Of a DNA stretch of 64,000 nucleotides, positions 24,704 through 44,797 are shown in pieces. The stretch is from a bacterium. GTDB lineage: Bacteria > Patescibacteriota > Microgenomatia > Daviesbacterales > UBA10151. The notes beneath the pieces were generated by a model, which did no database searches, had not been told where the DNA came from, and saw only the letters and a list, made by a program, of their open reading frames with translations. Both the position numbers and the translations under genes were made by a program. Location: the NCBI GenBank assembly GCA_021786315.1, contig JAJYNN010000002.1, forward strand, positions 31,370-95,369, in the 5' to 3' direction. How positions within the stretch are numbered: the stretch's first letter is position 1; every line of letters begins with the position of its first letter.

Positions 24704-25168
24704 CTATACACCCTTGTACTCGATGGTTTTAAAGTGGTAGTTATAATCCCGGTCTAATTTTTTCCCGCCGTCAAACTTGGTATCGTTTTTATAGATAAAT
24801 AAAGTATAAGTGGTGCCTAAAGCGAAGGTGGAAGTGGGAATGATTTTAGCTGTCTTTTTATCGTCGGAAAGTTTAATGGTGTATCCTACTGCAGGCTCTA
24901 TTTTGTGTTTAAGTTCGTCTTTATTTTCCAAAGGCAGGTTAAAAGTAATTTCTATATCTTGAGTGGGTAAAATAATGGCGTTGTCTAAAGCTTCCGGGTT
25001 GGTGGAGATAATTTTGCCGTATTCAGGTGCTACAGAAATATTTTGCTGTTGCAACTTTGGGGAAGAATGTGATGGCGAGCTATAAAGCCCTTGTTTAAAA
25101 ATCAGGATTAATACAGCTCCGATTATGGTGGCTGCGGCAATAATTTTTTGTTTAAAACTTAAGGACAT
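24704..25168 (-). CDS. secreted/anchored protein with Ig-like (Big_5/SbsA-like) domain
   Basis: N-terminal TM/signal segment, then a beta-rich domain with an IxTxPxxxxxNxxxxxxIxIxF pattern; last gene of the T4SS-like operon. Confidence 0.35.
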   Translation of the reverse strand: MSLSFKQKIIAAATIIGAVLILIFKQGLYSSPSHSSPKLQQQNISVAPEYGKIISTNPEALDNAIILPTQDIEITFNLPLENKDELKHKIEPAVGYTIKLSDDKKTAKIIPTSTFALGTTYTLFIYKNDTKFDGGKKLDRDYNYHFKTIEYKGV

Positions 25169-25174
25169 ATTATT

Positions 25175-25909
25175 TTATTCCGGTTTTATCTCCCAGGTTA
25201 TATTGTACACCGATAAATCTATGCCCAGGTTGGTAAGTCTGGTTTTAATTTCATTTTGCATATTTGCAATCTGGTCATTAATTGAAGTGGAGGAGGAAGT
25301 CTGGGGATAAAGTTTTCCGATAAAATGGGGGTCTCCTTGGTTTGTCGTAAAGTAGACAAAATATTCCTTCTCCTCTAAAGGAAGGCTAAGGAACCAGGGA
25401 TATTTTTGTATAAACTGGTCTCTTTGCTCGGCAACTTGCTGGTCAGCTTGAAGTTGAAGTTTTGTTTGATCTTGGGAAGTAGCTTTCTCGACAGGCACGG
25501 TGGTAAATGTCCAGGAATGGGTTAGGCCAAGATAGATTAACTTGGCAATATATTTTTGGTTTGGATTAAGGGGTTTGGGTAAATCTAAGGAAAGGATTTT
25601 ATTGTCGGAAGACCAATTGGTGCTACCGGTAATGTCAGGAAGAATTGTGATGGATGTAGTATTTTTTTCTGTCTCAGTAAGTGAGCGGGAGAAATTAACC
25701 TGAATTTTAGGGAAAAGGCTGATATTGGTACTGTTAGGGGAGGGGTAAGCTGATGTAATTGTTATGCTTGGCTGGGTGGTGGGGGTTGGGGATTGAAACT
25801 GGATAAGATCCCTAGGCTTTTGGGTCTTTTTAAATAATGGGGAGATAAAAGAAACCACTATAAGGGCTAGAAGCAGAAAAACTCCTAAAATTAAAAAATA
25901 CTTTTTCAT
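25175..25909 (-). CDS. secreted protein with Ig-like (Big_5-like) N-terminal domain
   Basis: Signal peptide/TM then an ITSAYPSPNSTNISLFPKIQVNF-type Big_5 pattern; resembles the downstream neighbour. Confidence 0.35.
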   Translation of the reverse strand: MKKYFLILGVFLLLALIVVSFISPLFKKTQKPRDLIQFQSPTPTTQPSITITSAYPSPNSTNISLFPKIQVNFSRSLTETEKNTTSITILPDITGSTNWSSDNKILSLDLPKPLNPNQKYIAKLIYLGLTHSWTFTTVPVEKATSQDQTKLQLQADQQVAEQRDQFIQKYPWFLSLPLEEKEYFVYFTTNQGDPHFIGKLYPQTSSSTSINDQIANMQNEIKTRLTNLGIDLSVYNITWEIKPE

Positions 25910-28288
25910 TTAAATATGTCCTCCAAAACCGGTAATTTTCTCATCGGGATTAAAGTTATTTTGAATTTCCCAATTATCCACACTATATGTCCATCCGGTA
26001 TATTTACCAGCATTTGAATCATAGGTGGTTATATGACCAGTCCCGGTTGTTTTATCGACTGTGTTTTCTTTAACAATTGAGACATGCTCATTATAAGTTG
26101 TCACACCTGGTTTTTCTTCTTGGAACATGGCAAAACCCGGTTGGACATCTTTTAGAACCTGATGGTTTTGTTGATAATCGAGATAAATATAACCCAAAGA
26201 GGAAGATTTTTTCCAGAAGTTTTCCATATTAACTACCAAACCATGAACAGCTTTATCCAACCCTGAAAAACCAGCTAGATTGAAGGAGTCAATTACCAGG
26301 TATGTACAGGCATAGTTATTACTAGCTGCGGCAGTGTAACCATTATTTGTGATAGGAGAAAGGAGAATACTGCTGGATTTTTTATCGAAATTGTTAATAA
26401 TTGTCTGAGTCCATTGCAGAATATTATCCAATAAACCTCCGGAAGAAGCAGCGCTCTTACAGCCTTTGTAGCTGTTCCAGAGGTCGGAGCAGTAGCTGTA
26501 AGTTTGTCCGTTTTGGGAATACTCACATCCTCCATAGTAGGAGCTGGCTATTTGCCTTATTGTTGCCTCGTTATAAACAGGGTTTGTTCCGGCATCAAGT
26601 TTAGCCTTGATGGCGGTAGCTATAATTTCGTCCTTTATACTGTAGATCCGCATCTTATCTTCTGTTGTCTGCTTGTAAAGGGGATCATTAGGATCCTGGT
26701 ATCTTTTTTGGGTTATTTGGTTGCCTAATGGATTTGACAAATTCCCGTGATATTTATCAATAAAATCCCTACTTTTTACCCAAACGGGAATAAAACCTGT
26801 TTTTTCAGGGAACCTCTCTTTTAATTCATTGCTGTTGACTATATCAAGCCAAGTAGTGGGGGTGAATTGTGTGGCTCCAAAAGCTACCGGTTGTTGTGTG
26901 TCCTCGTCAAAAGAGTTGTGATCATCAAAATCATTCTCAAGATAGCTGGGATCATTGGTATAAAAACATTCCGGGCATTCGACCCGTAATATCCCCGCGA
27001 CGATAGATGGTGGGACTCCCACTCTTGAAGAAACATTATTAATAAGCTTTGGCCATTCGGGAGTTCTAAATTTTAATCCGGGAGTAGAATCCCCACCCCG
27101 GTAGAAAGTGCAGGAGGTTACATCTCCACTTGGGCTGACATTGTCGGGGTTACTAGAGGATCCACCCAAAAAGCCGAAGAATAGTATTATTCCAGCGAGA
27201 CCAAAAATAATACCGACAGCTGCCGGGCCTACCAGTCCAATTCGCAGCCAACTCAAAGGATTCAAATTAGAGCTAGAATGTTTATTGTTGTTATTCTTAG
27301 GAGTGTCTATATCAGGAAAGGTTTCTAACTCTCTAGGATTTTCTGATCCGCCTGCAATGGGCATAAGTACTCTCCCATTAGGCAAGATAAAATTAGAAAG
27401 ATCGACATCTGGTATCCCTAAATTAGATTGAGGTCTGGTGGGTCTTTGAAGAATAATATTTCCTGTAACTCTGCCTGATATTCCTCCAATGATAAAACCA
27501 AGCGCTGCTCCTGGTGGACCTCCCCAAAACAAACCTGCCGCTGCTCCTGCAGCTCCGCCTATAATTTCTCGGGGAAAGCGGGTAATAAGCCCGTGAAGTT
27601 TTCTTTGGCTATAGCTAACTGCATTTTTAATCGAAGATGGAGTTTCGAATTGCTTTAACCTTTGGATTATTGGATTCAACCTCTCTGAAAGTGTGGGTGA
27701 AGGGGCAGATGTAACACTTTCAGAAGATAGCGAACTTTCCTTAGGTGTTTCTTGCTTTTGGGATTGAGGTTGTTCTTCTTTGGCCTCGGTTGTTCTTTTG
27801 GAAGAAGACAATGTTAGTTCTTCTTTTTTGTCCTCTTCATTTATTCTTCTTTCAATCTCTTTTCGCCTGGCTCCATCGTCGTTAATATTATCCACCTCTT
27901 CCGGAATTAGATGGTTGGCTAGGAGAGGTTGTTGTTGCTCAGATCGGTTAACTGCTAAGGAGAATAGGTGTAATCTTTTCTCGTCATCAGAGTACTTAAC
28001 AAGGAAGGATTTAGAACTGTCAGGTGATTTTTTGCTGGAAAAGTATTCATTTTTATATTTTTGATCCATTCCTCCTGGAAGTTCAGATGAGACCATTGAA
28101 GCTGCATCCTGAAACATTTTTAAATAAAAGATTAAAGGTCGGCCTTGATACCTTATGGGCAGTCTGGCATCAATATAGCTGTCGATAAGTTTCCGTCCGC
28201 TTTCGGTTTGGTAGATTTTAAGAAACTGCTGGGCGTCTTTAATCTGATTAGGCCGGTATTTAGTAAAAAGATTGGTTAAATTAGCCAT
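25910..28288 (-). CDS. large membrane-anchored cell-wall hydrolase (PrgK/VirB1-like) with C-terminal CHAP-like domain
   Basis: Charged/coiled N-terminal region, Gly-rich TM region, central region with VPPSIVAGILRVE block, C-terminal Cys...His papain-like pattern (YACTYLV ... NEHVSIV). Confidence 0.55.
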   Translation of the reverse strand: MANLTNLFTKYRPNQIKDAQQFLKIYQTESGRKLIDSYIDARLPIRYQGRPLIFYLKMFQDAASMVSSELPGGMDQKYKNEYFSSKKSPDSSKSFLVKYSDDEKRLHLFSLAVNRSEQQQPLLANHLIPEEVDNINDDGARRKEIERRINEEDKKEELTLSSSKRTTEAKEEQPQSQKQETPKESSLSSESVTSAPSPTLSERLNPIIQRLKQFETPSSIKNAVSYSQRKLHGLITRFPREIIGGAAGAAAGLFWGGPPGAALGFIIGGISGRVTGNIILQRPTRPQSNLGIPDVDLSNFILPNGRVLMPIAGGSENPRELETFPDIDTPKNNNNKHSSSNLNPLSWLRIGLVGPAAVGIIFGLAGIILFFGFLGGSSSNPDNVSPSGDVTSCTFYRGGDSTPGLKFRTPEWPKLINNVSSRVGVPPSIVAGILRVECPECFYTNDPSYLENDFDDHNSFDEDTQQPVAFGATQFTPTTWLDIVNSNELKERFPEKTGFIPVWVKSRDFIDKYHGNLSNPLGNQITQKRYQDPNDPLYKQTTEDKMRIYSIKDEIIATAIKAKLDAGTNPVYNEATIRQIASSYYGGCEYSQNGQTYSYCSDLWNSYKGCKSAASSGGLLDNILQWTQTIINNFDKKSSSILLSPITNNGYTAAASNNYACTYLVIDSFNLAGFSGLDKAVHGLVVNMENFWKKSSSLGYIYLDYQQNHQVLKDVQPGFAMFQEEKPGVTTYNEHVSIVKENTVDKTTGTGHITTYDSNAGKYTGWTYSVDNWEIQNNFNPDEKITGFGGHI

Positions 28289-30041
28289 TATCTACTTTTT
28301 TCCTTGCGAGGAGTTCCTGGGGGTTGGTGGTGATTAAATTATGCTCTTCTTCTGAGGCAACTACCCTCATGGCAACGTGGGTATTGCCGGCAAAGAACAA
28401 TCCCTGGCCGATACTGCCTGCCTGCAGGATCCTTTTTTCTCCTTGGGAAAGGTTAAAGACCTGGCCTAAGGTTTCCACGGAAATAGGCGCTTGTTTTAGT
28501 AGAACCTGCATGGCGGAGTTGGAAATAATTTCCTTGCCCCGGTCGGTGCCTAAGAAATCCTCCACATCTTGGCTGATAGTGGTTACTCCTAAGAAATATT
28601 TACGTGAACGTTTAACCATCTCTACTAAGAAGGCGGCGGAATCGGGATACTTCATCATGTACCAGGCTTCATCTACTACCAGGATCCTTTTCTTAAGCTC
28701 CCGCCTGATCTTTGTCCAAACATAATCCAGGATCAGGTACATAGCCAAAGGCCGCAGCTGGTCGGGAAGTTCGCGGACGGAAAAGACGGTAAAAGGATTG
28801 TCTAATTTGATATTGGAGTGGGTAGAGAAAATCCCGGATAGTGATCCTTTAATAAACCTCTCTAGTCTTACAGCTAAGGAGTTGGCTATTTGGTCTTCCA
28901 TGCCGATTAAGACTTTATACAGATCCTCCATAAGGGGCGGTTCGGCTCCGGCGGGCATGTTGGTGGAGGTAATTCCTTTGAGGCGGTAAGTCGTATTTAG
29001 TGCCCGGTCTAAGATTGCTGCTTCCTGGGAATTAAGATCCCCTAAAACCAGCTTCAAAAATCCAATTAAAGAAAGGATTTTTCTTCCCAACTCATCCTCG
29101 CCTCTGTCGGCCACTTCCGGCAAGTCAAAGGGGTTAATCTTTACCGGTGAGTTTGAGGAGAAGCTAATATAATCCCCGCCCACGGCTTTAGCTAAATCGG
29201 CATACTCCCTTTCCGGATCGATCACGATAACCTCAGTGCCCAGCATTAACGACCTTAAGGCCTCAAGTTTGACGAAGTAGGATTTACCGCTGCCGGCCGT
29301 GGCCAAAACTACCGAGTTGGCGTTTTCCCCTCCAAAGCGGTCGTAAATAATTAAGGAATCATTATGTTCGTTGATCCCGTAAATTACCCCTTCAGCCGAC
29401 ATCAGTTCAGAAGATGTAAAAGGGAAAGTGGTGGCCAAAGAGGTGGTATCCATGTTGTGGGTCAGGTACAAAAGATCCTGGCCTAACGGCTCGGTGCAGA
29501 TAAACCCTTCCTGCATCTGTAAAATCGAAGGTCTGACAGTCACTGAAATACTTCCTAAGGTTGATTCAACGAGTTGAGATTTGTTGTCGAGCTCGGTTTT
29601 GGACCTGGCGGGAGCAGTAATATATAGGCTGTATTGGAAAAATCTTTCGGCGCCTTTGGCCAGTTGTTCCTGTAAATCCCGGGCATCTTCCAAGGCCACG
29701 GTAACTGAGGGGTCGATCACCCGGCCCCGTTCAACGTCGGTCTGAATGGTTGCCTCCATCTCGGCGATCTTTCTTTTTAGATCATCCAGAACTCCGGCAG
29801 ATTTAGTAGGGTATATAAACATGGAAATATATAAGGAATGCTCAAAAGAAACGAGTGGTTCCAGCCAATTGGGTTGAACAAATCTGGGGTATCCCGAAGC
29901 ATAAAAGGTGCGGTAAACACTGTTACAAAGCCGAAGATACGAAAAATCCACCTCCATCTCTAAAGGTGCAACGACATCTTCAATATTTAGCCCTGTGGAA
30001 ACAGGAGCTGGTTGGTTAGTTTTTTTACGGCCCAAAATCAT
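28281..30041 (-). CDS. VirB4/TraE/TrsE-family T4SS ATPase, C-terminal ATPase portion
   Basis: Walker A LATAGSGKS, Walker B ILVVDEAW, conserved YYRTF...GYP middle region and TTISQDVED block. Confidence 0.85.
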   Translation of the reverse strand: MILGRKKTNQPAPVSTGLNIEDVVAPLEMEVDFSYLRLCNSVYRTFYASGYPRFVQPNWLEPLVSFEHSLYISMFIYPTKSAGVLDDLKRKIAEMEATIQTDVERGRVIDPSVTVALEDARDLQEQLAKGAERFFQYSLYITAPARSKTELDNKSQLVESTLGSISVTVRPSILQMQEGFICTEPLGQDLLYLTHNMDTTSLATTFPFTSSELMSAEGVIYGINEHNDSLIIYDRFGGENANSVVLATAGSGKSYFVKLEALRSLMLGTEVIVIDPEREYADLAKAVGGDYISFSSNSPVKINPFDLPEVADRGEDELGRKILSLIGFLKLVLGDLNSQEAAILDRALNTTYRLKGITSTNMPAGAEPPLMEDLYKVLIGMEDQIANSLAVRLERFIKGSLSGIFSTHSNIKLDNPFTVFSVRELPDQLRPLAMYLILDYVWTKIRRELKKRILVVDEAWYMMKYPDSAAFLVEMVKRSRKYFLGVTTISQDVEDFLGTDRGKEIISNSAMQVLLKQAPISVETLGQVFNLSQGEKRILQAGSIGQGLFFAGNTHVAMRVVASEEEHNLITTNPQELLARKKVDNG

Positions 30042-30870
30042 CGTTTAACTCTTCCACGACAAATGGGGGAGAAAGGGGGGTGGTGGATGAAGGAGCTGGG
30101 GCAGAGGGAATGGGAGTTTGGGGTATGGGGTGAGGCGCAAAAGCTGGTTGAGTGGGAGCGGGTTGAGGTAAAGGTGCAGTAGTTTGGGGAGCAGCTACTT
30201 CCACAGGTTGGTTTATTAGCTTCTTGTCTTCACCGGCCACCTGGTCTACTGATTTATCTGATTTTCTGGCTTCCGGCTTCTGTTTTCCATCCTCCAGGCT
30301 AAACTGGTTTTCCGGATAAGGTGGGTTATAGATGTTGTAAAAGAGGGTCACCAGGTCAGGGGTGGTCATTTGTCTGGACTTTAACCCTAACCTGGAAAGT
30401 TGCCTAATGACGTGGTCTCGCCTGGGGGCAAGCACCGTGGTTGCCCGTTTGCTTTTGTCGGCAATATTTTTAGGTAAAACTCCGAGCTCCACCGGATTTA
30501 CCGCCAGGCAAACATAAAATTGTTTATCCAGGACGTTTTTCTCCTTAATAATACCGGCCACAAATTCGCGGTAACGGGCGGTCATGTTTTTTAACAGGGG
30601 ATTAGTCTGGGTGGCCAAAGCCTTATCTAAAGTTGACAGGTATGATGAGACATCCAGCCTTCTGGACTGGACAACAATTTGGATAGGGAAGGAGAGGGAG
30701 TTTAAAAACCCGGCAAAGGATTCAATAATCGACATTTGCTCAGTTTCAAAAAGCAGCCCGAAGTTCACAGCGGAGGTAGAAATGACCATAGTTACCCCTC
30801 CGTTTTTTAAAAAGACTAAATTATCTTTAATATCGGCAATAGGTACAAAACTTTGGCTACGATTGACCAT
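30025..30870 (-). CDS. VirB4 N-terminal domain encoded as a separate ORF with a Pro-rich C-terminal linker
   Basis: PIADIKDNLVFLKNGGVTMVI...SEEQ pattern typical of the VirB4/CagE N-terminal region; 17-nt overlap with the ATPase ORF in another frame. Confidence 0.5.
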   Translation of the reverse strand: MVNRSQSFVPIADIKDNLVFLKNGGVTMVISTSAVNFGLLFETEQMSIIESFAGFLNSLSFPIQIVVQSRRLDVSSYLSTLDKALATQTNPLLKNMTARYREFVAGIIKEKNVLDKQFYVCLAVNPVELGVLPKNIADKSKRATTVLAPRRDHVIRQLSRLGLKSRQMTTPDLVTLFYNIYNPPYPENQFSLEDGKQKPEARKSDKSVDQVAGEDKKLINQPVEVAAPQTTAPLPQPAPTQPAFAPHPIPQTPIPSAPAPSSTTPLSPPFVVEELNDDFGP

Positions 30871-35230: not shown

Positions 35231-35235
35231 TTTAA

Positions 35236-37767: not shown

Positions 37768-37801
37768 ATGCCGATTATTATTTACTTGTCAAGCACGGCC
37801 T

Positions 37802-38203
37802 TTATTTAGTTAGCTTGACTTGTCCTTCGAAGAATTGGAATCCGGTAATATCGCCAATGACATTAATAATGACCCAGGCTAAAGCCAAAAGAACTATTCC
37901 AATAATTGCCCAAGTGAGCCTTCTCCGGGCGTTGCCTACAGCCTCCTTGTCACCGCCGGAGGTGATCCATTGAAGACCGCTGATTAAAACCATAAAGATA
38001 AAGATTATCCCTGCCGCCACATAAATTAATTGGATTGTATTGTTTAATACCGTGCTAATGCCTTTACCTCCCGGTCCTAAAGCGGCAATTGGGGTAGGGG
38101 CTTCAACTTTTCCGATGACATCGTCCACACTTTGGGCAGCAGCCAGACTAACTTGTTTTAAAAATATGGCGATACCCAAAAGAGGGACAAGAATTTTTTT
38201 CAT
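37802..38203 (-). CDS. pilin-like small membrane protein, paralog P3
   Basis: Signal peptide plus QWITSGGDKEAVGNARRRLTWAIIGIVLL motif. Confidence 0.6.
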   Translation of the reverse strand: MKKILVPLLGIAIFLKQVSLAAAQSVDDVIGKVEAPTPIAALGPGGKGISTVLNNTIQLIYVAAGIIFIFMVLISGLQWITSGGDKEAVGNARRRLTWAIIGIVLLALAWVIINVIGDITGFQFFEGQVKLTK

Positions 38204-38529
38204 GGGTTTGTTTTAATGACCTCGAATCCTTTCAGGCCTAAAAACTCCGGCACAAATTGGATAATTAAAAACATCAGCATTAATAGTATAAAACCTATAA
38301 TAGCATGGATAATCATGTTCCGGGCACCAGAAACGGCATTTTTATCGCCCCCGGAGAGGACAAACCTAAAGGCTCCAATTAAAAAGTAGATAATGACGGC
38401 CAGTGCAGCAATGGCAAATCCCGGGCCGACTAATGCACCCATGACACTGGCTAGTGAATCATAGTTGCCAAAGCCATAAGCATCTTTTAAATCAACACTG
38501 GCAGCATAAGCAGTCGGAATGAAATTCAT
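38200..38529 (-). CDS. pilin-like small membrane protein, paralog P2 (the track ORF 38200..38640 is probably N-terminally over-extended)
   Basis: VLSGGDKNAVSGARNMIIHAIIGFILL motif; start ATG overlaps the stop of P1 (ATGA). Confidence 0.5.
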   Translation of the reverse strand: MNFIPTAYAASVDLKDAYGFGNYDSLASVMGALVGPGFAIAALAVIIYFLIGAFRFVLSGGDKNAVSGARNMIIHAIIGFILLMLMFLIIQFVPEFLGLKGFEVIKTNP

Positions 38530-38864
38530 GGCGTTGTTACGGTTGTTATCGGTATATCTTTTGGTTTGGCCAGATCCTCTTTTAAGAATTGGCTGATAGC
38601 AAAAGCTAGAATCAGTATAACAAAACCAACGATTGACCAAATGATCCTTTTACGGGCATAGGACAAACCTTCCTTACTACCTCCGGCAAAGATGTATTGG
38701 AAAACTCCCCAGGCAAACCAAAAAAGCATTAAAAATCCTCCGACCATTAACGCCAGGTTCAAAAAAGCGGAGATTACTCCTCCTAAGGTAGGTTCTTTAA
38801 TGGCAAAACCCGCCCCGGTTTTTATTGGATCAGCATCAAAAATTGCTTTAAGTCCTGGAATCAT
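38526..38864 (-). CDS. pilin-like small membrane protein, paralog P1
   Basis: IFAGGSKEGLSYARKRIIWSIVGFVIL motif; start overlaps the stop of the upstream adhesin-like gene. Confidence 0.5.
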   Translation of the reverse strand: MIPGLKAIFDADPIKTGAGFAIKEPTLGGVISAFLNLALMVGGFLMLFWFAWGVFQYIFAGGSKEGLSYARKRIIWSIVGFVILILAFAISQFLKEDLAKPKDIPITTVTTP

Positions 38865-40318
38865 GGTTTAAACCCCGGTATTTGTAGTATATCAACACCA
38901 ATAACTCTAAGAAGCATGATAGCTAAAAGTAGAAAAAGTAGCCCAATAGCGGCGTTGACAAACTGATCCTGAGCTCTTTTTAGGTTATCTGGATTCCCAC
39001 CCGAAATAATCCATTGAATTGCCCCAAATATCATTAGCAGTAAAGCAATACCCCCACCAATACCAGCTGCCACTTTAACCAGGCTTTTAACTAAAACAGA
39101 GGGGTCAGTAGGAATACAGCCAACAGAAGTGGAAATCCCTCCTCCTGTAACACCGGCTTGAACATCACATGGATCACCTGTGGCTTTACTGCAACTAGAT
39201 CCTGAGCAATTAAGGGTAGTGGCGGTAGGAACCACAGTTGTGGGTCTCGGCCCTTGGTATTTTTGGACAGTAAACTGAGTGGCAGGACATGCTTCATTTC
39301 CGTTTTGATCATAAAGTTTTAGTGTTGCTGAGTAACCTTCTGAAATTCCTTTGCCGACTACCATTTGGAAAATTTGGCCGTTAGGTCCTGAATTTAGATT
39401 ATCAGCAATAGTGGTGGTTGTTCCTGAATTTATGGAATCAAGTCTAAAATTACTATTTTTAGGAAGGTTTGTAGCGGTGAAGGAAATATTGTCTTGTACT
39501 GTTGGTTGGGAAGGATTAATCAAACAGGTTGGTTGGCGGGTTATCTTTACGGCCCGATAAGTGAAGGTTGTAGAATAGGAACAGGTTAAACCCGCAGTCC
39601 CAAGAGATATTGAACGACCGTTTTTAACGGTTGCACAAATCTTCTTTTCGCCAATCTTTTTAAATCTGTCTCCATCATCACCAGGATTTAAAGAGATGGG
39701 GGTGTTGCTGCTGGAAGGAACTGTTGCCTCTTGGACAGAGAAATGATCTCCTTCCCACCAGAAAAGATAAGCGTTTCCTGGGTTAGCGTTAATCAAAAGG
39801 ACTTGTGGTGTTTCACCTAACTCCAGTTCTTGGATAACAGGTTCTAGTTGGACAGTACTGCCGCCTTGTTGCTGAACTTCGAATGAAGCTAATGCTACAA
39901 CATTGGGGTTACTACTTGGATCTCCTCCGCAGTCACTAACTTGAGTTGCAGCACATACTTTGGCGTACCATGCACCCAAGTTATTTCTTCCTATAGAGCC
40001 TTGAAATAAGTTGATACTGGCGGTAATTGTATGTTCGTCCGTCGGCTGGACGTCATGAACGATATTAAAATAGTTGGCGTAAAGGCCTACATTATTTTGG
40101 GCGGATTGTGGATATAGGATGACTTTATGGTTGGTTGCAGTAATAAATGATGAACACTCGGAGCTGGTTGTGATGGTCATTGAATTTCGGTAATCCGGAT
40201 CAGTAATTATTGAAGGAGTGGCAGTATAGCTACAGGCAGCAAAAGCATTTTTAGGGGTAAAAAGCTGAGCTAAGACTATAACTACGAAGAAAGACAATAA
40301 AGTTAAGAATTTAGGCAT
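38861..40318 (-). CDS. large secreted protein with C-terminal pilin-like domain (candidate minor pilin/tip adhesin)
   Basis: Signal peptide, ~400-aa Cys-containing beta-rich extracellular region, C-terminus IISGGNPDNLKRAQDQFVNAAIGLLFLLLAI matching the P1-P5 motif. Confidence 0.5.
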   Translation of the reverse strand: MPKFLTLLSFFVVIVLAQLFTPKNAFAACSYTATPSIITDPDYRNSMTITTSSECSSFITATNHKVILYPQSAQNNVGLYANYFNIVHDVQPTDEHTITASINLFQGSIGRNNLGAWYAKVCAATQVSDCGGDPSSNPNVVALASFEVQQQGGSTVQLEPVIQELELGETPQVLLINANPGNAYLFWWEGDHFSVQEATVPSSSNTPISLNPGDDGDRFKKIGEKKICATVKNGRSISLGTAGLTCSYSTTFTYRAVKITRQPTCLINPSQPTVQDNISFTATNLPKNSNFRLDSINSGTTTTIADNLNSGPNGQIFQMVVGKGISEGYSATLKLYDQNGNEACPATQFTVQKYQGPRPTTVVPTATTLNCSGSSCSKATGDPCDVQAGVTGGGISTSVGCIPTDPSVLVKSLVKVAAGIGGGIALLLMIFGAIQWIISGGNPDNLKRAQDQFVNAAIGLLFLLLAIMLLRVIGVDILQIPGFKP

Positions 40319-40381: not shown

Positions 40382-42139
40382 TTGGATATGCCCCGGTTGA
40401 ACCTTTTCCAACTTGCCGTAATTGTTGCTTCCCTAATTACCAGCTACTTTATACTAACTACTTTTGCCAAGGCTGATGAAATTGATGATTTACAGAAACA
40501 AATTGATTCCCTAAACAAGGCTCGGGAGATGTCCATCGCCGCTACCAAACCCCTGGAGGGGCAACTGGATTCTTTAAAAATACAGTTGGCCCAAATCCAG
40601 CAAAAATTACAAAACCTTTCCTACAGCATTTCCCAGAAGGAAATTGATCTTAAGCTTCGGGAAGATAAATTGGTGACCCAACAGGCCCTGCTTTCATCCC
40701 GGGTCCGTTCCTACTACATCCGTTCATATTCAGCTACACCGTTATTGGTTATTTTTTCTTCTGCCTCATCAGGTGACTTATTCCGTGACCTTTCTTACCG
40801 CCAGGCTGCTACCCAGGAGGACCAAAAAATCATTACCACCATTACCACAGAGATGTTGGATTTAATTACCCAAAAAGAAAAGCTGGAAAAAGACAAAGCC
40901 AGTTTGGCCTCGCTGCAGTCCCAGGTGGACAAAAATGCTACCTTTTTGGCGGGGGAGGTAGGAAAGGCGAAGGCTTATCAGCAAACTTTGTCCACCCAAA
41001 TTGCCCAGCTTTCTGCCCGGCAGCAGCAGCTATTAGCCCAGAAGTTAGGAAGCTTGAATTTGCCCATTTCGGCTTACGCGATGCACGGTGGGTGTTCCGA
41101 TGACCGGAATACCGATCCCGGTTTCTCCCCCCGCTTTGCCATGTTTACTTATGGTGTGCCCAACAGGGTAGGGTTGAGCCAATATGGGGCCTGGGGTAGG
41201 GCCAAAGCCGGCCAAAATGAGGACCAAATTTTGCGGGCCTACTACAACTTTGATGGCTACCAAAACGTAAATACTGGGGTCAATATCCGGGTCAATGATT
41301 CCAACGGCTTTAACTCCGGCAATATTATTTGGAGCGGAAGTTTGGAAGACTATATAAAAAGAATCTACGAGGTGCCTGATTCCTGGTCAGATAATAATTT
41401 AGCGGCCTTAAAGGCTCAGGCAATTGCCGCCAGGTCTTATGTTTTGGCGGCGACCAATAATGGCGCTTCCTCGATTTGTGCCAACGAAAATTGCCAGGCT
41501 TTCCAAACTAATCCCAAAGGCGGCAACTGGGAGTCGGCGGTGAATGCTACCTCGGGGAAAGTTATGGTCCAGGGTGGCCAGCCGATTAAGGCTTGGTTTT
41601 CCTCAACTCATGGAGGATATGTCTTCAGTTCGGGGGAAATTGGCTGGAGCGGAACTTCCTGGACCAAACATGCAATCGACACCACTTCCGGATCAGCCGG
41701 AAGTTTTGCTGATTTGCAAGGCAATGCCTACGATAAAGACTCACCGGTATTCTATTGTGACTGGGGTTCCCGGGCCCAATACAATAAAACTGCCTGGTTA
41801 AAATCCAGCGAGATGGCGGATATTGTTAACTCTATTTTGCTGGTCCAATCCGACAACTCTGCCGATTCCCATATCCTCCAAACGGATAAAGGCTATCCTG
41901 ACGCCTGGGATGAGAGCAGGGTCAGACAGGAATTATCTAAATACCGGACTCCTTTTAACAGTATTTCCTCAGGGAGTGTTGATGCTGACTTTGGGAACGG
42001 CAGGACGTCTACGGTGCACTTTAGTGGTGACGCCGGCTCAGTGGACTTTCCCGGGGATGTCTTTAAGAAATACTTTAACTTAAGGGCTCCCTCAAACATT
42101 AACATTGTCGGCCCCCTTTACAACCTGGAGAAAAGGTAA
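40382..42139 (+). CDS. membrane-anchored coiled-coil protein with C-terminal SpoIID/LytB-like peptidoglycan lytic domain
   Basis: N-terminal TM then ~200 aa of heptad-rich sequence; C-terminal ALKAQAIAARSYVL...CANENCQAFQ...KAWFSSTHGGYVFS matches SpoIID/LytB conserved blocks. Confidence 0.65.
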   Translation: MDMPRLNLFQLAVIVASLITSYFILTTFAKADEIDDLQKQIDSLNKAREMSIAATKPLEGQLDSLKIQLAQIQQKLQNLSYSISQKEIDLKLREDKLVTQQALLSSRVRSYYIRSYSATPLLVIFSSASSGDLFRDLSYRQAATQEDQKIITTITTEMLDLITQKEKLEKDKASLASLQSQVDKNATFLAGEVGKAKAYQQTLSTQIAQLSARQQQLLAQKLGSLNLPISAYAMHGGCSDDRNTDPGFSPRFAMFTYGVPNRVGLSQYGAWGRAKAGQNEDQILRAYYNFDGYQNVNTGVNIRVNDSNGFNSGNIIWSGSLEDYIKRIYEVPDSWSDNNLAALKAQAIAARSYVLAATNNGASSICANENCQAFQTNPKGGNWESAVNATSGKVMVQGGQPIKAWFSSTHGGYVFSSGEIGWSGTSWTKHAIDTTSGSAGSFADLQGNAYDKDSPVFYCDWGSRAQYNKTAWLKSSEMADIVNSILLVQSDNSADSHILQTDKGYPDAWDESRVRQELSKYRTPFNSISSGSVDADFGNGRTSTVHFSGDAGSVDFPGDVFKKYFNLRAPSNINIVGPLYNLEKR

Positions 42140-42165: not shown

Positions 42166-42738
42166 ATGGGCTTCTCGCTTTTTCCCGCTATCTTTGACCG
42201 TCCGGAAAAAATTGCTTTTGCTGATCAGGAAGAGGACGAATATATTGAACTCTTTTTAAGGCACCACTGGGTAACAAATGTCTCCTGGGTTTTTATCGTA
42301 ATTTTAGGTTTTGTTTTACCGATGGTGGTAGTGAACTTGCAGGTAGTAAAGGATTTATTGGTTTTCTCCAGAATGCCAACCGAAATTTTTCTCTCCCTGC
42401 TTCTTCTTTGGTATATGTTTATAGTGCTTTATGCCGTCTCCCAGTTCCTTCACTGGTACTTTAATATTTACATTATTACTAATAAACATTTAGTGGATGT
42501 CAACTTTGTCAATTTGATGTCCCGGGATAAAATCGAGGTCCAACTGGATGATATTCAAAGTGTAAAATCTACCCTGAAAGGGATTTTAGGCTCTTTATTT
42601 AATTTTGGGGATGTGGTGATTGAGACTGCGGCTGAAAAGCAGAACATTAATTTTTATGCCGTTCCTAAACCGGATTTTGTTACTGAAAGGATCCAGGATT
42701 TGCAGGAGGCGGAAGAGAGGAGTAATAATGCCGGTTGA
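42166..42738 (+). CDS. membrane protein with bPH_2 (YdbT-like) domain
   Basis: Two TM helices then the TNKHLVDVNF...IxLDDIQSV...VVIETAAEKQ pattern, similar to ORF 43..636. Confidence 0.5.
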   Translation: MGFSLFPAIFDRPEKIAFADQEEDEYIELFLRHHWVTNVSWVFIVILGFVLPMVVVNLQVVKDLLVFSRMPTEIFLSLLLLWYMFIVLYAVSQFLHWYFNIYIITNKHLVDVNFVNLMSRDKIEVQLDDIQSVKSTLKGILGSLFNFGDVVIETAAEKQNINFYAVPKPDFVTERIQDLQEAEERSNNAG

Positions 42739-42976
42739 AAGCCAGCTTTTTCCCCTAACACTGACTCCAATGGGAAGTTTTTGGTGGATTGTGAAAGCAG
42801 GGGTGGTTATCTTATCCCTTTTTGGTTTTGCCTTTAGTTTAATTACCCTCCGCCAGGTAAATTTAATGACGGACACCTTAATTACCGAAAATGCCGGCCT
42901 CTTGCGGGCATTTGCTATAATCTTTGCAGGTACCTGCCTAGGGTTAACGATTCTTTTTATTGGCTTGTTGTTTTAA
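42728..42976 (+). CDS. small two-TM membrane protein
   Basis: 83-aa ORF starting at an ATG that overlaps the upstream stop (ATGCCGGTTGA); internal part of track ORF 42620..42976. Confidence 0.4.
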   Translation: MPVESQLFPLTLTPMGSFWWIVKAGVVILSLFGFAFSLITLRQVNLMTDTLITENAGLLRAFAIIFAGTCLGLTILFIGLLF

Positions 42977-42982
42977 AATTGT

Positions 42983-44797
42983 ATGCTGAAAACAGCAAAA
43001 GTAGTGGGTCTAAATTCTGATACTGCTGCTGCCTTAGCTTTAATTTCTCCGTGGTTTGTTAGCGACCAGGGTGAGGGAGGCCAAAGATTCTTCCTTTCAA
43101 TTGTTTCCTGTGAATGTGAAGATGCTTTTTCTAAAGTCCGGCAGTCGCTTTCTTTAGCTGAAGAGGAAGCCATTACTTCCACCGAGCCGGCAGCTTTGCG
43201 CTTGCCGAAGATTCTGGGGCAAATAAAGGACTATTTAAAAGATGCTGATAATTTTGCAGCACTTTTAGTGGCGGTAGTTGAGGACAATGAAGGGACTGCC
43301 CTTTATCTTTTATCGGAAGGGGAGGGTTTAATTGCCAACCTTTGTCGGGATGGCAAAGAGAATAATTTACCGGGATTAGGCGATGGCCAAGTGGTTTCTG
43401 GGATTTTAAAAGAAGGGGACAGGATTGTCCTTTCTACCCAAAGTTTAGCTGATTTTCTTGGTACCCATTCTGTATCTTTAAGCAAAATACCAATCGAAAA
43501 CTTTGAGGATGAGGTTGAAAGCTTTTTGCCGGAGGCCCAAACGAATCCCCTGGCAGCTATTGTTTTAGAAAAAGAAGTTGAAGTTAAGGAAGAATCAACA
43601 GAACCAGTCTTAAAAGAACTAAATAATAAAATTGATATTCCCAAACCTTCACTTCCCAGAATTACCCCAAATTTAGGGGGAGTGTTGCAGGCTATCCGTC
43701 CCCACTCCAAAAAATCCGTGCTAATTTTGGCAGTTGCTATACTTTTGGGAGCAGGAATTGTCGGAGGTGTAACTTACAAGAAAAGACAGGATGCAAAAGT
43801 TACAAGTCAATTTACCCAAGCCCTAAATCAAGCCAGGGAAGCAATGGATAAATCAAATTCCGAAAAAGACAGCGACCCCCCGGCAGCTTTATCCGCTTTG
43901 GCGGACGCCAAAAAGTATGTCCTGGAAGCATTATCAATTAAACCTAACCAATCAGAAGCCCTGTCTTTAAAAGATCAAATTGAAAAAGCTTCGCCGGCAA
44001 TTTTAAAGGTCAACAGCGTCGAAAATTTCCCAGTCTGGTTGGACTTAGGTTTAATTAAACAGGGGTTTAGAGCTTCCAATCTTTCTTTATCCCATGGCAA
44101 TATCTTAATTTTAGACAACAATAAACAAACTTTAGTGAGTATTAACACAAAAACCAAATCTCATGAGATACTGGCCGGGTCAGAGAAGATTGGTGAAGCT
44201 AAAATTACTTCCCTAAATGGGGGAGTTTCCTGGATTTACTCGGATGATAAAGGGCTATTAAGGATTGAAGACGATAAAATTGTCAATGTGGCCAAACAGG
44301 ATAAGGACTGGGGGGATATTGCCGATATTTACGGTTTTGCCGGTAACGTCTATGTTTTGGATGAAGGGAAAAACCAAATCTGGAAATATATGCCGATTGC
44401 CAGCGGGTTTTCTGATAAGCGGGAATATTTGCAAAGCGGGGTGAAGGCTAATTTTGCCGGGGCCAAAAGGATGCAGATTGAATCCTCCATCTATATTCTT
44501 AAAGGGGGAGGGGAAATATTGCGGTTTACCCAGGGAAAGCCTGACTTTTTTGCCTACTCGGGTTTGGATAAGCCGGTCAAGGATGCCCGCAGTTTCTTCG
44601 TTTCCTCGGAAACCGACAATTTATATCTTTTGGATGGGGACAATAGCAGGCTTTTGGTTTTGGATAAAAAAGGCGCCTATAAAGCCCAATACCAATCCGA
44701 TAAATTCAGCCAATTTAGTGATCTGGTGGTAGATGAGGAGGGTAAAAAGGTTTATTTACTTGATGGTAGTAAAATATACTCAATGGATTTGAAATAA
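42983..44797 (+). CDS. single-pass membrane protein with C-terminal repeat (beta-propeller-like) domain
   Basis: Central TM helix (~aa 240-262); C-terminal recurring YVLDEGKNQIWKY / LYLLDGDNSRLLVLD / VYLLDGSKIYSMDL blades. Confidence 0.4.
   Translation: MLKTAKVVGLNSDTAAALALISPWFVSDQGEGGQRFFLSIVSCECEDAFSKVRQSLSLAEEEAITSTEPAALRLPKILGQIKDYLKDADNFAALLVAVVEDNEGTALYLLSEGEGLIANLCRDGKENNLPGLGDGQVVSGILKEGDRIVLSTQSLADFLGTHSVSLSKIPIENFEDEVESFLPEAQTNPLAAIVLEKEVEVKEESTEPVLKELNNKIDIPKPSLPRITPNLGGVLQAIRPHSKKSVLILAVAILLGAGIVGGVTYKKRQDAKVTSQFTQALNQAREAMDKSNSEKDSDPPAALSALADAKKYVLEALSIKPNQSEALSLKDQIEKASPAILKVNSVENFPVWLDLGLIKQGFRASNLSLSHGNILILDNNKQTLVSINTKTKSHEILAGSEKIGEAKITSLNGGVSWIYSDDKGLLRIEDDKIVNVAKQDKDWGDIADIYGFAGNVYVLDEGKNQIWKYMPIASGFSDKREYLQSGVKANFAGAKRMQIESSIYILKGGGEILRFTQGKPDFFAYSGLDKPVKDARSFFVSSETDNLYLLDGDNSRLLVLDKKGAYKAQYQSDKFSQFSDLVVDEEGKKVYLLDGSKIYSMDLK

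What the first reader, a model, noticed from the sequence alone, without database searches (positions are those of the whole stretch)
24704..44797. 20-kb Gram-positive-style T4SS / conjugative-pilus-like locus directly downstream of dnaN
The locus contains a VirB4 ATPase (28281-30870) and a PrgI/VirB3-like protein (30857-32062). It also has a VirB6/TrbL-like polytopic protein (35236-37047) and five tandem pilin-like paralogs plus a pilin-domain adhesin (36980-40318). Two peptidoglycan hydrolases (CHAP-type at 25910-28288, SpoIID-like at 40382-42139) and two Big_5-like surface proteins are present, along with bPH_2 membrane proteins and an 812-aa orphan. No relaxase, oriT-like nick region or integrase lies inside. 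The locus is wedged between dnaN and smpB/ssrA at the replication origin. That placement argues for a chromosomal, host-interaction or DNA-uptake apparatus rather than a mobile conjugative element. This particular combination, a Gram-positive-type VirB4/VirB3/VirB6/hydrolase core together with a multi-pilin array and pilin-tipped adhesin, is not a textbook architecture.
Basis: partly seen in the sequence, partly recalled or inferred. Interest (0 to 1): 0.85.

Follow-up and report, generated by a model that had tools for sequence, protein, structure and literature searches.

The report
Patescibacteria chromosomal T4SS with B12 riboswitch
This is the chromosomal, pilus-bearing type IV secretion system already described for ultra-small Patescibacteria (here a Daviesbacteria genome), so the main finding is real but known; the one undescribed detail I found is a vitamin-B12 riboswitch cassette nested inside it.

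Summary
The gene content holds, with corrections. VirB4 is natively split into a TrsD-like 281-aa protein and a 586-aa ATPase. The "CHAP" hydrolase call has only motif-level support. The locus has one bPH_2 protein plus one DUF5657 protein.

The prgI-trsD-virB4 core lies next to dnaN/dnaA in 48 of 55 informative related genomes. The pilin, SpoIID and smpB side is also syntenic. No relaxase or integrase lies in the locus. This is a vertically inherited chromosomal apparatus, not an ICE.

The architecture is published (Wang 2023; Quinonero-Coronel 2025): a monoderm-type T4SS core, VirB2-like pilin arrays, no relaxase, origin-proximal. Novelty is therefore low.

Two things appear undescribed:
- A cobalamin riboswitch (32191-32403) sits between prgI and the 812-aa "orphan". 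Twelve related riboswitches pass Rfam thresholds and show covariation. Elsewhere they precede a small lineage-specific zinc-ribbon protein family.
- The "orphan" occupies a positionally conserved slot. In 26 of 26 loci a large, TM-less, hypervariable protein lies between virB6 and prgI.

Their functions are unknown.

The parts
23588..24703 (+). dnaN (left boundary; context, not part of the machine)
   Evidence: Precomputed Pfam DNA_pol3_beta domains on the identical gene in L003. tblastn shows it conserved next to virB4 in 48/55 loci.
24704..25168 (-). 154-aa membrane-anchored Big_5 (bacterial Ig-like) surface protein
   Evidence: Pfam Big_5 35.8 bits, cut-off 23.6. N-terminal hydrophobic segment at residues 3-30. 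Homologue at the same position in Daviesbacteria-like loci.
25175..25909 (-). 244-aa membrane-anchored Big_5 surface protein
   Evidence: Pfam Big_5 30.4 bits, cut-off 23.6. N-terminal hydrophobic segment.
25910..28288 (-). 792-aa single-pass membrane protein; candidate VirB1-like cell-wall hydrolase with an SLT-like middle domain and a Cys/His/Asn C-terminal domain
   Evidence: One TM segment at 347-379. Homologues of the middle domain give sub-threshold SLT hits, E 0.0013 and 0.022. C-terminal domain has invariant C, H and N in four homologues. No family hit for the protein itself. The same position holds Peptidase_M23, SLT(faint) or GDSL-lipase proteins in relatives.
28281..30041 (-). VirB4-type ATPase, 586 aa (C-terminal two-thirds of a canonical VirB4)
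   Evidence: NCBIfam NF045971 conju_CD1110 374 bits, cut-off 325, profile positions 182-734 of 752. Pfam P-loop_TraG, AAA_10, DUF87. More than 8000 homologues; the best 120 are 531-618 aa.
30025..30870 (-). TrsD/TraC-like protein, 281 aa (VirB4 N-terminal domain encoded separately)
   Evidence: NCBIfam sub-threshold hits: TrsD E 1e-6; conju_CD1110 profile positions 14-184. Precomputed PF26593 TraC-like. Present upstream of virB4 in 66/68 loci.
30857..32062 (-). PrgI/VirB3-like membrane protein, 401 aa, with a Pro/Gln-rich linker and a C-terminal CarboxypepD_reg-like domain
   Evidence: Pfam PrgI 28.5 bits, cut-off 27. CarboxypepD_reg 26.8 bits, below its cut-off of 32.3. Hydrophobic hairpin at residues 31-77.
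32191..32403 (+). Cobalamin (B12) riboswitch aptamer, transcribed divergently from prgI
   Evidence: Rfam RF00174 48.7 bits, gathering score 31.5, E 3.8e-9, full model. Eleven further riboswitches in relatives pass gathering scores. The 5-bp stem is 100% paired with 31 compensatory cells; 0 of 500 shuffles reach this.
32425..32703 (+). 92-aa Cys-rich ORF (C-terminal CPKCG...CCSCC) directly after the riboswitch; possible remnant of the ZnR family gene
   Evidence: ATG lies 22 nt after the aptamer, with AGGA upstream. Called as a gene in L003. In relatives this position holds 310-485-aa proteins with GCGxSGG and a zinc ribbon. The window ORF itself is not significant against that family's HMM, E 0.96.
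32792..35230 (+). 812-aa TM-less 'orphan'; occupant of a positionally conserved slot for a large hypervariable protein between virB6 and prgI
   Evidence: No homologue among 5.8 billion proteins apart from itself. No Pfam, NCBIfam, PHROG or PDB hit. No TM segment. A 528-1337-aa TM-less opposite-strand protein sits at this position in 26/26 loci. Sequences fall into 18 clusters. Promoter-like site 32741-32769 matches 11 of 12 positions.
35236..36939 (-). VirB6-like polytopic membrane protein (567 aa from ATG; the ORF extends to 37047)
36980..37279 (-). VirB2-like T4SS pilin paralogue A (99 aa)
   Evidence: Pfam T4SS_pilin 38.5 bits, cut-off 26.6. Two hydrophobic helices.
37327..37752 (-). VirB2-like pilin paralogue B (141 aa, signal peptide)
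   Evidence: Pfam T4SS_pilin 31.3 bits. Alignment.
37802..38203 (-). VirB2-like pilin paralogue C (133 aa, signal peptide)
   Evidence: Pfam T4SS_pilin 52.1 bits. TrbC 23.6 bits, sub-threshold. NCBIfam Mbov_0395 pilin-like E 8e-7.
38200..38529 (-). VirB2-like pilin paralogue D (109 aa)
   Evidence: Pfam T4SS_pilin 23.4 bits, below the cut-off of 26.6. Aligns with the others through the SGG(D/E)K motif and both helices; 27-47% identity.
38526..38864 (-). VirB2-like pilin paralogue E (112 aa)
   Evidence: Pfam T4SS_pilin 30.1 bits.
38861..40318 (-). 485-aa secreted protein with a C-terminal pilin domain (candidate pilus-borne adhesin or minor pilin); first gene of the pilin operon
   Evidence: Pfam T4SS_pilin 33.4 bits at residues 411-473. 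N-terminal signal-like segment at 1-23. C-terminal domain conserved, ectodomain variable in relatives.
40382..42139 (+). SpoIID/LytB-type peptidoglycan lytic protein with an N-terminal coiled coil; syntenic neighbour, link to the T4SS unproven
   Evidence: Pfam SpoIID 48.4 bits. NCBIfam SpoIID_LytB 103.9 bits, cut-off 83.3. Conserved next to the pilin operon and upstream of smpB.
42166..42738 (+). bPH_2 membrane protein (190 aa)
   Evidence: Pfam bPH_2 26.3 bits, cut-off 22. Two TM segments.
42728..42976 (+). DUF5657 small membrane protein (82 aa from ATG)
   Evidence: Pfam DUF5657 36.4 bits, cut-off 25.
42983..44797 (+). 604-aa single-pass membrane protein with a possible C-terminal beta-propeller; function unknown
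   Evidence: Only sub-threshold NHL and DUF5128 hits. TM segment at 242-266. Syntenic before smpB.
45406..45804 (+). tmRNA (ssrA), with smpB at 44916-45356: right boundary (context)
   Evidence: Rfam RF00023 96.6 bits. ARAGORN missed it.
57765..60107 (+).
   Evidence: Pfam T4SS-DNA_transf 25.3 bits (cut-off 20.1), TrwB_AAD_bind 22.5 (20.5), TraG-D_C 23.2 (22). NCBIfam SXT_TraD E 2.9e-15, far below its cut-off.

Best explanation
[quoted passage not shown] It derives from the monoderm (MPF-FATA) conjugation machinery but has no relaxase.

Shown here:
- A split VirB4 ATPase (TrsD-like 281 aa plus 586 aa).
- A PrgI/VirB3 membrane anchor.
- A VirB6-fold polytopic channel protein.
- Five divergent VirB2-like pilins and a pilin-fused secreted protein.
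- A large single-pass protein after virB4 that is probably the VirB1-like wall hydrolase.
- A fixed position between dnaN and smpB across the class.

Inferred mechanism: VirB4/TrsD, docked on PrgI and VirB6, powers assembly of a VirB2-type pilus. The pilin-fused 485-aa protein would be a tip or minor subunit, and the paralogues would serve as variants. The pilus passes through a hydrolase-cut hole in the wall and forms a conduit to the host bacterium on which the epibiont lives.

Direction and cargo are unknown. My rough split is protein or effector export about 45%, import of host nucleic acid or nutrients about 35%, and adhesion only about 20%.

Two modules are nested between prgI and virB6, on the opposite strand:
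(a) A cobalamin riboswitch precedes a small Cys-rich ORF. In relatives the riboswitch precedes a 310-485-aa zinc-ribbon protein with a PAS-like core. I infer that B12 shuts this gene off.
(b) A large soluble hypervariable protein (812 aa here) is the best candidate in the locus for a secreted substrate or a host-specificity factor.
For: Component identities: (HMMs at or above curated cut-offs).

Native split of VirB4.

Pilin paralogy with 23-48% identity.

Class-wide synteny: trsD and prgI in 66/68 loci; dnaN/dnaA within 6 kb in 48/55; pilin-spoIID-smpB side.

No relaxase or integrase in the locus. Only a Xer-type recombinase 17 kb away.

Literature:
- PMC12102498 describes the same system, including TrsD, PrgI, pilin arrays abundant in Microgenomatia, absence of relaxase and dnaA/dnaN proximity.
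- PMC10633639 shows by Tn-seq that the homologous locus and its pilins are essential for epibiotic growth in Southlakia.
- A 2026 preprint reports tubular structures at the parasite-host interface that may be T4SS pili.

Riboswitch:
- 12 hits at or above Rfam gathering scores, each 9-92 nt upstream of the ORF on the same strand.
- covariation.
- 4 of 4 genes retrieved by protein homology alone carry the riboswitch.

Positional conservation of the large protein: (26/26).
Against: - Function is inferred from homology and from one distant cultivated relative (Saccharibacteria). Nothing here shows a pilus, a substrate or a direction of transport.
- The hydrolase assignment is weak: no HMM hit for the window protein.
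- No VirB8-like component was identified.
- The T4CP candidate is 13 kb away and scores only marginally.
- In this genome the ORF after the riboswitch is only 92 aa and is not significantly similar to the ZnR family.
- The 812-aa gene has its own strong promoter-like site, so riboswitch control of it is unproven.
- One ZnR-plus-riboswitch unit lies outside any T4SS locus (L089), so the riboswitch is tied to that gene, not necessarily to the T4SS.
- Homology among the large slot proteins cannot be demonstrated.
- SpoIID, bPH_2, DUF5657 and p604 may simply be a neighbouring operon that runs into smpB.
Confidence: 0.85

Rival explanations
1. An integrated conjugative element (ICE), or the remnant of one, that happens to sit next to dnaN.
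For: VirB4 scores above the cut-off of an ICE family, CD1110. A VirD4-like ATPase (57765-60107) and a tyrosine recombinase (61700-62566) next to tRNA genes are in the window.
Against: - No relaxase was found in the locus or among the window ORFs of 230 aa or more that were scanned.
- The recombinase matches XerC/XerD/XerA best, below their cut-offs, and lies 17 kb away.
- The locus is at the same chromosomal position in 48/55 related genomes spanning many candidate phyla of Microgenomatia.
- VirB4 is 68-86% identical across its 120 best homologues, which fits core-gene behaviour.
- GC content does not differ from the flanks.
Confidence: 0.03
2. A dedicated DNA or nucleic-acid import machine, like H. 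pylori ComB or the archaeal Ced system, that feeds an organism unable to make nucleotides. The pilus would act as the capture or entry device.
For: - There is no relaxase, and no T4CP within the locus.
- Weak hits of VirB4 to CedB (E 8e-12) and CedD, far below their cut-offs.
- comF lies just downstream at 45832-46527.
- PMC11665869 raises T4SS-mediated uptake as a candidate.
- A 2026 preprint links Patescibacteria parasitism to host RNA and shows putative T4SS pili.
Against: - In Southlakia, competence depends on T4P and ComEC, and ComEC is dispensable for growth while the T4SS is essential. This does not exclude ComEC-independent import.
- The CedB and CedD hits are generic ATPase similarity.
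- No DNA-binding or nuclease component was recognised in the locus.
Confidence: 0.3
3. The cobalamin riboswitch and the genes after it are an unrelated B12-regulon unit (for example B12 scavenging) that merely lodges in a permissive variable spacer of the T4SS locus. The 812-aa protein would be an unrelated, fast-evolving gene.
For: - The ZnR gene with its riboswitch also occurs between pgm and rpsI, outside any T4SS (L089).
- L007 and L011 have the large protein but no riboswitch.
- The spacer also collects toxin-antitoxin and AAA_14 genes in L002.
- The riboswitch is confined mostly to the Daviesbacteria-like clade: 5 of 8 informative loci with at least 66% VirB4 identity, and 1 of the more distant ones.
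Against: - In 11 of 12 cases the unit sits at exactly the same place, divergent from prgI.
- The large protein is present in 26/26 spacers. This is more than a permissive dump site would predict.
Confidence: 0.55

Closest known systems
Patescibacteria (CPR) T4SS as described in Southlakia epibionticum SEML1_0006-0019 (Wang et al. 2023, PMC10633639) and surveyed by Quinonero-Coronel et al. 2025 (PMC12102498)
   Same: - Order hydrolase - virB4 - trsD-like - prgI, then a large protein, then virB6, then an array of 5-6 divergent PF18895 pilins.
- No relaxase.
- Placed just after dnaA/dnaN.
- In Se, the hydrolase downstream of virB4 has lysozyme-like plus cysteine-proteinase domains. This matches the SLT-like plus Cys/His layout suspected here.
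   Different: - In Microgenomatia the pilin operon and virB6 are on the same strand as virB4, while the large slot protein is on the opposite strand.
- VirB6 is much shorter (567 aa against 1088 aa) and is not found by HMMs. The 2025 survey called VirB6 'scarce' in this class.
- No NTF2/VirB8-like gene was recognised.
- Two Big_5 proteins and a pilin-fused 485-aa protein are present.
- A cobalamin riboswitch cassette is present and is not mentioned in either paper.
MPF-FATA conjugative T4SS of Gram-positive plasmids and ICEs (pGO1/pSK41 TrsD-TrsE, pCF10 PrgI-PrgJ-PrgK-PrgH, C. difficile CTn CD1110)
   Same: - VirB4 above the CD1110-family cut-off.
- Separate TrsD-like protein, as in pGO1.
- PrgI.
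- Membrane-anchored multi-domain wall hydrolase following the ATPase.
- No outer-membrane core complex.
   Different: - No relaxase, oriT or adjacent coupling protein.
- Not mobile.
- Has VirB2-like pilins, which Gram-positive systems lack.
VirB2/TrbC pilins and VirB6 (TrwI, DotA) of diderm T4SSs
   Same: - Two-helix hairpin pilins with a basic loop.
- Paralogous pilin arrays, as in Bartonella and Anaplasma.
   Different: - No VirB5, VirB7, VirB9, VirB10 or VirB11.
- Monoderm envelope.
- One pilin domain is fused to a 400-aa ectodomain.
Cobalamin riboswitches (Rfam RF00174 and RF01689 AdoCbl-II)
   Same: - Full-length match above the gathering score.
- Conserved core and B12 box (AGTCCGGAGACCGACC).
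- Compensatory changes in the stem.
- In L002 the aptamer is followed by a terminator-like hairpin and a T-run.
   Different: - The downstream genes are not any known B12 transporter, biosynthesis gene or B12-independent isozyme.
- They form a 37-member lineage-restricted family without Pfam domains, plus (here) an orphan.
- The location is inside a secretion-system locus.

Membership tests
Patescibacteria-type T4SS (MPF-FATA-derived) | VirB4 signature ATPase of the monoderm type | tested here: met
   NF045971 374 bits, cut-off 325. Pfam P-loop_TraG 84 bits.
Patescibacteria-type T4SS (MPF-FATA-derived) | Separate TrsD-like protein adjacent to virB4 | tested here: met
   The 281-aa ORF matches the TrsD family (E 1e-6) and profile positions 14-184 of CD1110 VirB4, both below curated cut-offs. 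Precomputed PF26593 TraC-like. Found in 66/68 relatives.
Patescibacteria-type T4SS (MPF-FATA-derived) | PrgI/VirB3 membrane protein | tested here: met
   Pfam PrgI 28.5 bits, cut-off 27.
Patescibacteria-type T4SS (MPF-FATA-derived) | VirB6-like polytopic protein | tested here: met
Patescibacteria-type T4SS (MPF-FATA-derived) | Array of divergent VirB2-like pilins (PF18895) | tested here: met
   Four of five small ORFs and the 485-aa C-terminus score above the gathering score. The fifth scores 23.4 against 26.6. Pairwise identity 23-48%.
Patescibacteria-type T4SS (MPF-FATA-derived) | VirB1-like peptidoglycan hydrolase next to virB4 | tested here: inconclusive
   Single-pass 792-aa protein. Only sub-threshold SLT hits in homologues and an invariant C/H/N pattern. 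All direct searches were negative.
Patescibacteria-type T4SS (MPF-FATA-derived) | No relaxase associated; chromosomal, near dnaA/dnaN | tested here: met
   No relaxase hit in the locus or among the window ORFs of 230 aa or more that were scanned. dnaN/dnaA adjacency in 48/55 relatives.
Patescibacteria-type T4SS (MPF-FATA-derived) | Required for epibiotic growth; forms a pilus or channel to the host | not testable with these tools
   Known only for Southlakia by Tn-seq (PMC10633639).
Conjugative element (ICE or plasmid MPF-FATA) | Relaxase plus oriT | tested here: not met
   No relaxase family hit in any scanned ORF. oriT was not searched separately.
Conjugative element (ICE or plasmid MPF-FATA) | Integrase or att sites bounding the element; variable presence | tested here: not met
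   Only a Xer-like recombinase 17 kb away. The position is conserved across the class.
Conjugative element (ICE or plasmid MPF-FATA) | Coupling protein (VirD4/TcpA) in the transfer operon | tested here: not met
   None in 24704-44797. A marginal VirD4-like candidate lies at 57765-60107.
Cobalamin riboswitch (RF00174 / RF01689) | Match to the covariance model at or above the gathering score | tested here: met
   48.7 bits against 31.5 in the window. Eleven relatives score 35.3-62.2 bits.
Cobalamin riboswitch (RF00174 / RF01689) | Structure maintained by compensatory substitutions | tested here: met
   One 5-bp stem was tested: 65/65 cells paired, 31 double changes, 0/500 shuffles reach this, slid controls 29-51% paired. 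Other helices were not tested.
Cobalamin riboswitch (RF00174 / RF01689) | Controls a gene of B12 transport, synthesis or B12-independent metabolism | tested here: not met
Cobalamin riboswitch (RF00174 / RF01689) | Binds a cobalamin and switches expression | not testable with these tools
   Needs in-line probing or ITC and a reporter assay.
Type IV pilus / type II secretion (rival for 'pilin' genes) | PilB/GspE-type ATPase, prepilin peptidase, type IV prepilin leader | tested here: not met
   The ATPase is VirB4-type. The pilins match T4SS_pilin/TrbC, not type IV pilin families.

The most novel reading that the evidence does not exclude
The cobalamin riboswitch cassette and the positionally conserved hypervariable large protein may be functional accessories of the T4SS. 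B12, a metabolite these epibionts must obtain from a host, would be sensed by the riboswitch. The riboswitch would tune expression of a ZnR/PAS-like factor and, by read-through, of a hypervariable T4SS substrate or host-specificity protein. This would be the first natural small-molecule regulatory input to a Patescibacteria T4SS, and the first candidate cargo.
Probability: 0.15. Interest if true: 0.7.

Novelty: new member of a known kind. Interest (0 to 1): 0.4.

Why it matters
The role of the Patescibacteria T4SS is described in the literature as completely unknown (PMC11665869), although it is essential in the one species tested. This window adds no new kind of machine. It offers three concrete handles for the least-studied class, Microgenomatia:
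1. A structural identification of the VirB6 component that the 2025 HMM survey reported as scarce in this class.
2. A fixed slot for a large, soluble, hypervariable protein. This is the obvious first candidate for a secreted substrate or host-range determinant.
3. A covarying B12 riboswitch linked to a 37-member protein family of unknown function. The family is either a new B12-regulon member in organisms that cannot make B12, or a regulatory input to the locus.

Native riboswitches are also of practical interest as expression switches for Patescibacteria genetics.

Tried and rejected
- Frameshift or pseudogene explanation for the two VirB4 ORFs. Rejected: all 120 best homologues are 531-618 aa, and a separate TraC-like gene precedes virB4 in relatives.
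- ICE hypothesis. Rejected on synteny and the lack of a relaxase or integrase.
- Homologues of the 812-aa protein. None were found in the word-seeded search of 5.8 billion proteins. There is no Pfam, NCBIfam, PHROG or PDB hit. Local phmmer and iterative HMM searches among 32 positional analogues gave only a 15-bit link to L007 and no coalescence into one family.
- CHAP or SLT confirmation for the 792-aa protein. Pfam on the whole protein and on sub-domains, NCBIfam, PHROGs, PDB phmmer and a profile search, and tblastn against plasmids and phages were all negative or sub-threshold.
- More riboswitches. nhmmer with the conserved core found none beyond those listed, either in the 80 genome loci or in the 42 metagenome loci. 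A permissive Rfam search of L007, L011 and L013 was negative.
- A profile of the VirB6-like family against PDB sequences gave nothing. Only fold comparison worked.
- Literature searches combining riboswitch and cobalamin with Patescibacteria or CPR returned no paper.

Full report
**What is in the interval**

ORF listing and HMM scans give the following map.
- On the minus strand, running away from dnaN (23588-24703):
  - Two membrane-anchored Big_5 proteins (24704-25168, 25175-25909).
  - A 792-aa single-pass protein (25910-28288).
  - A VirB4-type ATPase of 586 aa (28281-30041). NCBIfam CD1110-family VirB4 scores 374 bits against a cut-off of 325.
  - A 281-aa TrsD/TraC-like protein (30025-30870).
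  - A PrgI/VirB3 protein (30857-32062).
- On the plus strand:
  - A cobalamin riboswitch (32191-32403; Rfam 48.7 bits against a gathering score of 31.5).
  - A 92-aa Cys-rich ORF (32425-32703).
  - The 812-aa orphan (32792-35230).
- Back on the minus strand:
  - A polytopic 567/603-aa protein (35236-36939/37047).
  - Five PF18895 T4SS-pilin paralogues.
  - A 485-aa secreted protein whose C-terminus is a sixth pilin domain (38861-40318).
- On the plus strand again: SpoIID (40382-42139), bPH_2, DUF5657, a 604-aa single-pass protein, smpB, and tmRNA (45406-45804).

dnaA lies at 21562-22887, and the cumulative GC skew reaches its minimum at about 20-22 kb. The locus therefore abuts the replication origin.

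- The 'VirB4 28281-30870' is two ORFs in different frames. They are collinear with a full VirB4 profile, at positions 14-184 and 182-734 of 752. All 120 best homologues of the ATPase are 531-618 aa, and relatives have a separate TraC-like gene upstream. The split is native. It corresponds to the TrsD component that the 2025 survey found to be the most abundant T4SS part in Patescibacteria.
- The CHAP label for the 792-aa protein could not be confirmed by any search.
  - The protein has one TM segment at residues 347-379.
  - Homologues of its middle domain give sub-threshold SLT hits.
  - Its C-terminal domain keeps an invariant Cys, His and Asn in four homologues.
  - In relatives the same slot holds Peptidase_M23, faint-SLT or GDSL proteins.
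  - In Southlakia it holds a protein with lysozyme-like plus cysteine-proteinase domains.
  - A VirB1-like hydrolase is therefore likely but unproven.
- Only one protein is bPH_2; the next gene is DUF5657.

**VirB6**

No HMM recognises the 603-aa protein. One of 17 locus homologues touches Pfam TrbL at E 0.0015. The family is large: 3233 representative clusters.

An AlphaFold model built on 66 sequences has pLDDT 78 and pTM 0.64.
- Foldseek independently ranks TrwI chains first (probability 0.95, E 0.033), though TM-scores are low.

I accept it as VirB6-like with moderate confidence. This fills the gap noted for Microgenomatia in PMC12102498.

**Is it mobile?**

No.
- A scan of one genome per species with a VirB4 alignment gave 80 loci across Daviesbacteria, Curtissbacteria, Woesebacteria, Levybacteria, Gottesmanbacteria, Beckwithbacteria, Amesbacteria, Dojkabacteria, WWE3 and others.
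- trsD and prgI precede virB4 in 66 of 68 loci with enough sequence.
- dnaN/dnaA lies within 6 kb downstream (median 2.65 kb) in 48 of 55.
- A metagenome scan with the SpoIID protein showed the order virB6 - five pilins - pilin-fused protein | spoIID - bPH_2 - DUF5657 - p604 - smpB in about 20 contigs.
- The locus has no relaxase or integrase.
- The rest of the window holds housekeeping genes, a marginal VirD4-like ATPase at 57765-60107, and a Xer-type recombinase at 61700-62566.

**Comparison with what is known**

The same system is published.
- Wang et al. 2023 showed by Tn-seq that the homologous locus (SEML1_0006-0019) and its pilin array are essential for epibiotic growth of Southlakia. 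They noted the Gram-positive-like composition, the unusual pilins, and the lack of coupling and relaxase proteins.
- Quinonero-Coronel et al. 2025 surveyed the phylum. They reported a monophyletic VirB4 clade sister to MPF-FATA, TrsD, PrgI, VirB2 arrays of 2-11 genes (abundant in Microgenomatia), almost no relaxases, and proximity to dnaA/dnaN in Microgenomatia and Paceibacteria.
- A 2025 review treats these systems as a recognised T4SS type.
- The function is still called completely unknown.
- A 2026 preprint reports putative T4SS pili at a parasite-host interface and proposes macromolecule transfer.

**The riboswitch cassette (not in the finding, not in the papers read)**

Cobalamin-clan hits at or above Rfam gathering scores occur at the same place, divergent from prgI, in L001, L002, L006, L008, L010, L014 and L036. 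L009 has the core motif.

In each case the first downstream gene encodes a 310-485-aa protein with a GCGxSGG motif and a C-terminal CPxCG...CxxCG zinc ribbon. A profile search found only 37 such proteins among 5.8 billion; the few named by their sources are Daviesbacteria or Microgenomates proteins, and none has a Pfam domain.

Four of these, chosen by protein homology alone, were looked up. All four carry a cobalamin riboswitch immediately upstream (35-62 bits). Three lie in the same T4SS position and one lies between pgm and rpsI.

In all 12 cases the aptamer ends 9-92 nt before the start codon. A 5-bp stem shows 65/65 paired cells and 31 compensatory cells, against 9.5 +/- 2.5 in shuffles (0 of 500 reach the observed value); slid controls pair at 29-51%. 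L002 has a terminator-like hairpin and a T-run after the aptamer.

Caveats for this window:
- The ORF after the aptamer is only 92 aa. It resembles the family only by position and by its Cys-rich tail (E 0.96).
- A strong promoter-like site (11 of 12 positions plus TG) sits just before the 812-aa gene.
- L007, L011 and L013 lack the riboswitch.

**The 'orphan'**

The 812-aa protein has no detectable homologue. But in 26 of 26 loci that contain both virB6 and prgI, the spacer holds a 528-1337-aa protein without TM segments, on the opposite strand and adjacent to virB6. Thirty-two such proteins fall into 18 clusters with only faint cross-links.

Positional conservation combined with extreme sequence turnover is what one expects of a host-facing or secreted factor. 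This is inference, not demonstration.

**Mechanism, and how sure**

- Identity as the Patescibacteria T4SS: about 0.85.
- Working model (inferred): TrsD/VirB4 on PrgI and VirB6 assembles a VirB2-type pilus through a hydrolase-made gap in the wall. The pilin-fused protein would serve as a minor or tip subunit, and the paralogues as variants. The result is a conduit to the host cell.
- Cargo and direction are open. I lean to protein export (about 45%), over import of nucleic acid or nutrients (about 35%), over adhesion only (about 20%).
- That the B12 riboswitch unit is functionally linked to the T4SS: about 15%. That it is an independent B12-regulon gene lodged in the variable spacer: about 55%.

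**Verdict**

The system is already known, so this is a new member of a known kind. Interest is moderate (0.4). It rests on the structural VirB6 assignment for Microgenomatia, the conserved hypervariable slot, and the undescribed B12 riboswitch-ZnR unit.

Noticed in passing
window 32191-32403 (+); also L001 7704-7834, L002 7811-7890, L006 7582-7727, L008 3216-3440, L010 5762-5841, L014 7864-7942, L036 1765-1963, L086 5908-5980, L087 5852-5989, L088 5800-5971, L089 2184-2388: Cobalamin riboswitches inside the T4SS locus, divergent from prgI. Each lies 9-92 nt upstream of a lineage-restricted zinc-ribbon protein family (37 members, no Pfam domain). The stem shows covariation. No paper in the held library links riboswitch and cobalamin with Patescibacteria or CPR.
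   Followed up: yes
window 32792-35230 and the virB6-prgI spacer of 26 loci (e.g. L007 4164-7808, L011 3752-7765, L001 4292-6526): A large (528-1337 aa), TM-less, opposite-strand protein occupies this slot in 26/26 loci. Its sequence is hypervariable (18 clusters from 32 proteins). It is a candidate substrate or host-specificity factor.
   Followed up: partly
window 57765-60107 (+) and 60104-61360 (-): A 780-aa VirD4/TraD-like coupling-protein candidate (marginal Pfam hits just above gathering scores) lies 13 kb beyond the locus. It is followed by a convergent 418-aa protein with no family hit.
   Followed up: partly
window 61700-62566 (-), tRNAs at 61490-61564 and 63217-63291: A tyrosine recombinase that best matches XerC/XerD/XerA (all below cut-off) lies between a tRNA-Ile with anticodon TAT and a tRNA-Met. 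It is probably a housekeeping Xer, but it sits next to tRNA genes and the T4CP-like gene.
   Followed up: partly
window 23091-23543 (+): A 150-aa protein between dnaA and dnaN, with an N-terminal hydrophobic segment. Relatives carry precomputed PF10107 Endonuc_Holl. It is 71-80% identical across Daviesbacteria-like loci, more conserved than DnaN itself (53-69%).
   Followed up: no
window 45832-46527 (+): A ComF-family gene (below the curated cut-off) lies directly after tmRNA, a few kb from the T4SS block. The 2025 survey noted comF near T4SS genes in class ABY1.
   Followed up: no
window 45406-45804 (+): tmRNA was found by Rfam (96.6 bits) but missed by ARAGORN on the same window.
   Followed up: no
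L002 915-6296; L009 4245-6137; L010 1668-4102: In some relatives the spacer beyond the ZnR gene has collected PIN/PhdYeFM and ParE toxin-antitoxin pairs and AAA_14/DUF4143 ATPases in place of virB6 and the pilins. This region is a hotspot for accessory genes.
   Followed up: no
L089 583-698 (-): A SAM-I/IV riboswitch hit (41.6 bits against a gathering score of 41.1) lies near the out-of-context ZnR gene in a Daviesbacteria-like contig.
   Followed up: no
window 46627-48244: A tight cluster of five tRNA genes (Ser-GCT, Ser-TGA, Arg-GCG, Ser-CGA, Arg-CCG) is interleaved with a 204-aa membrane protein of unknown function (47077-47691).
   Followed up: no
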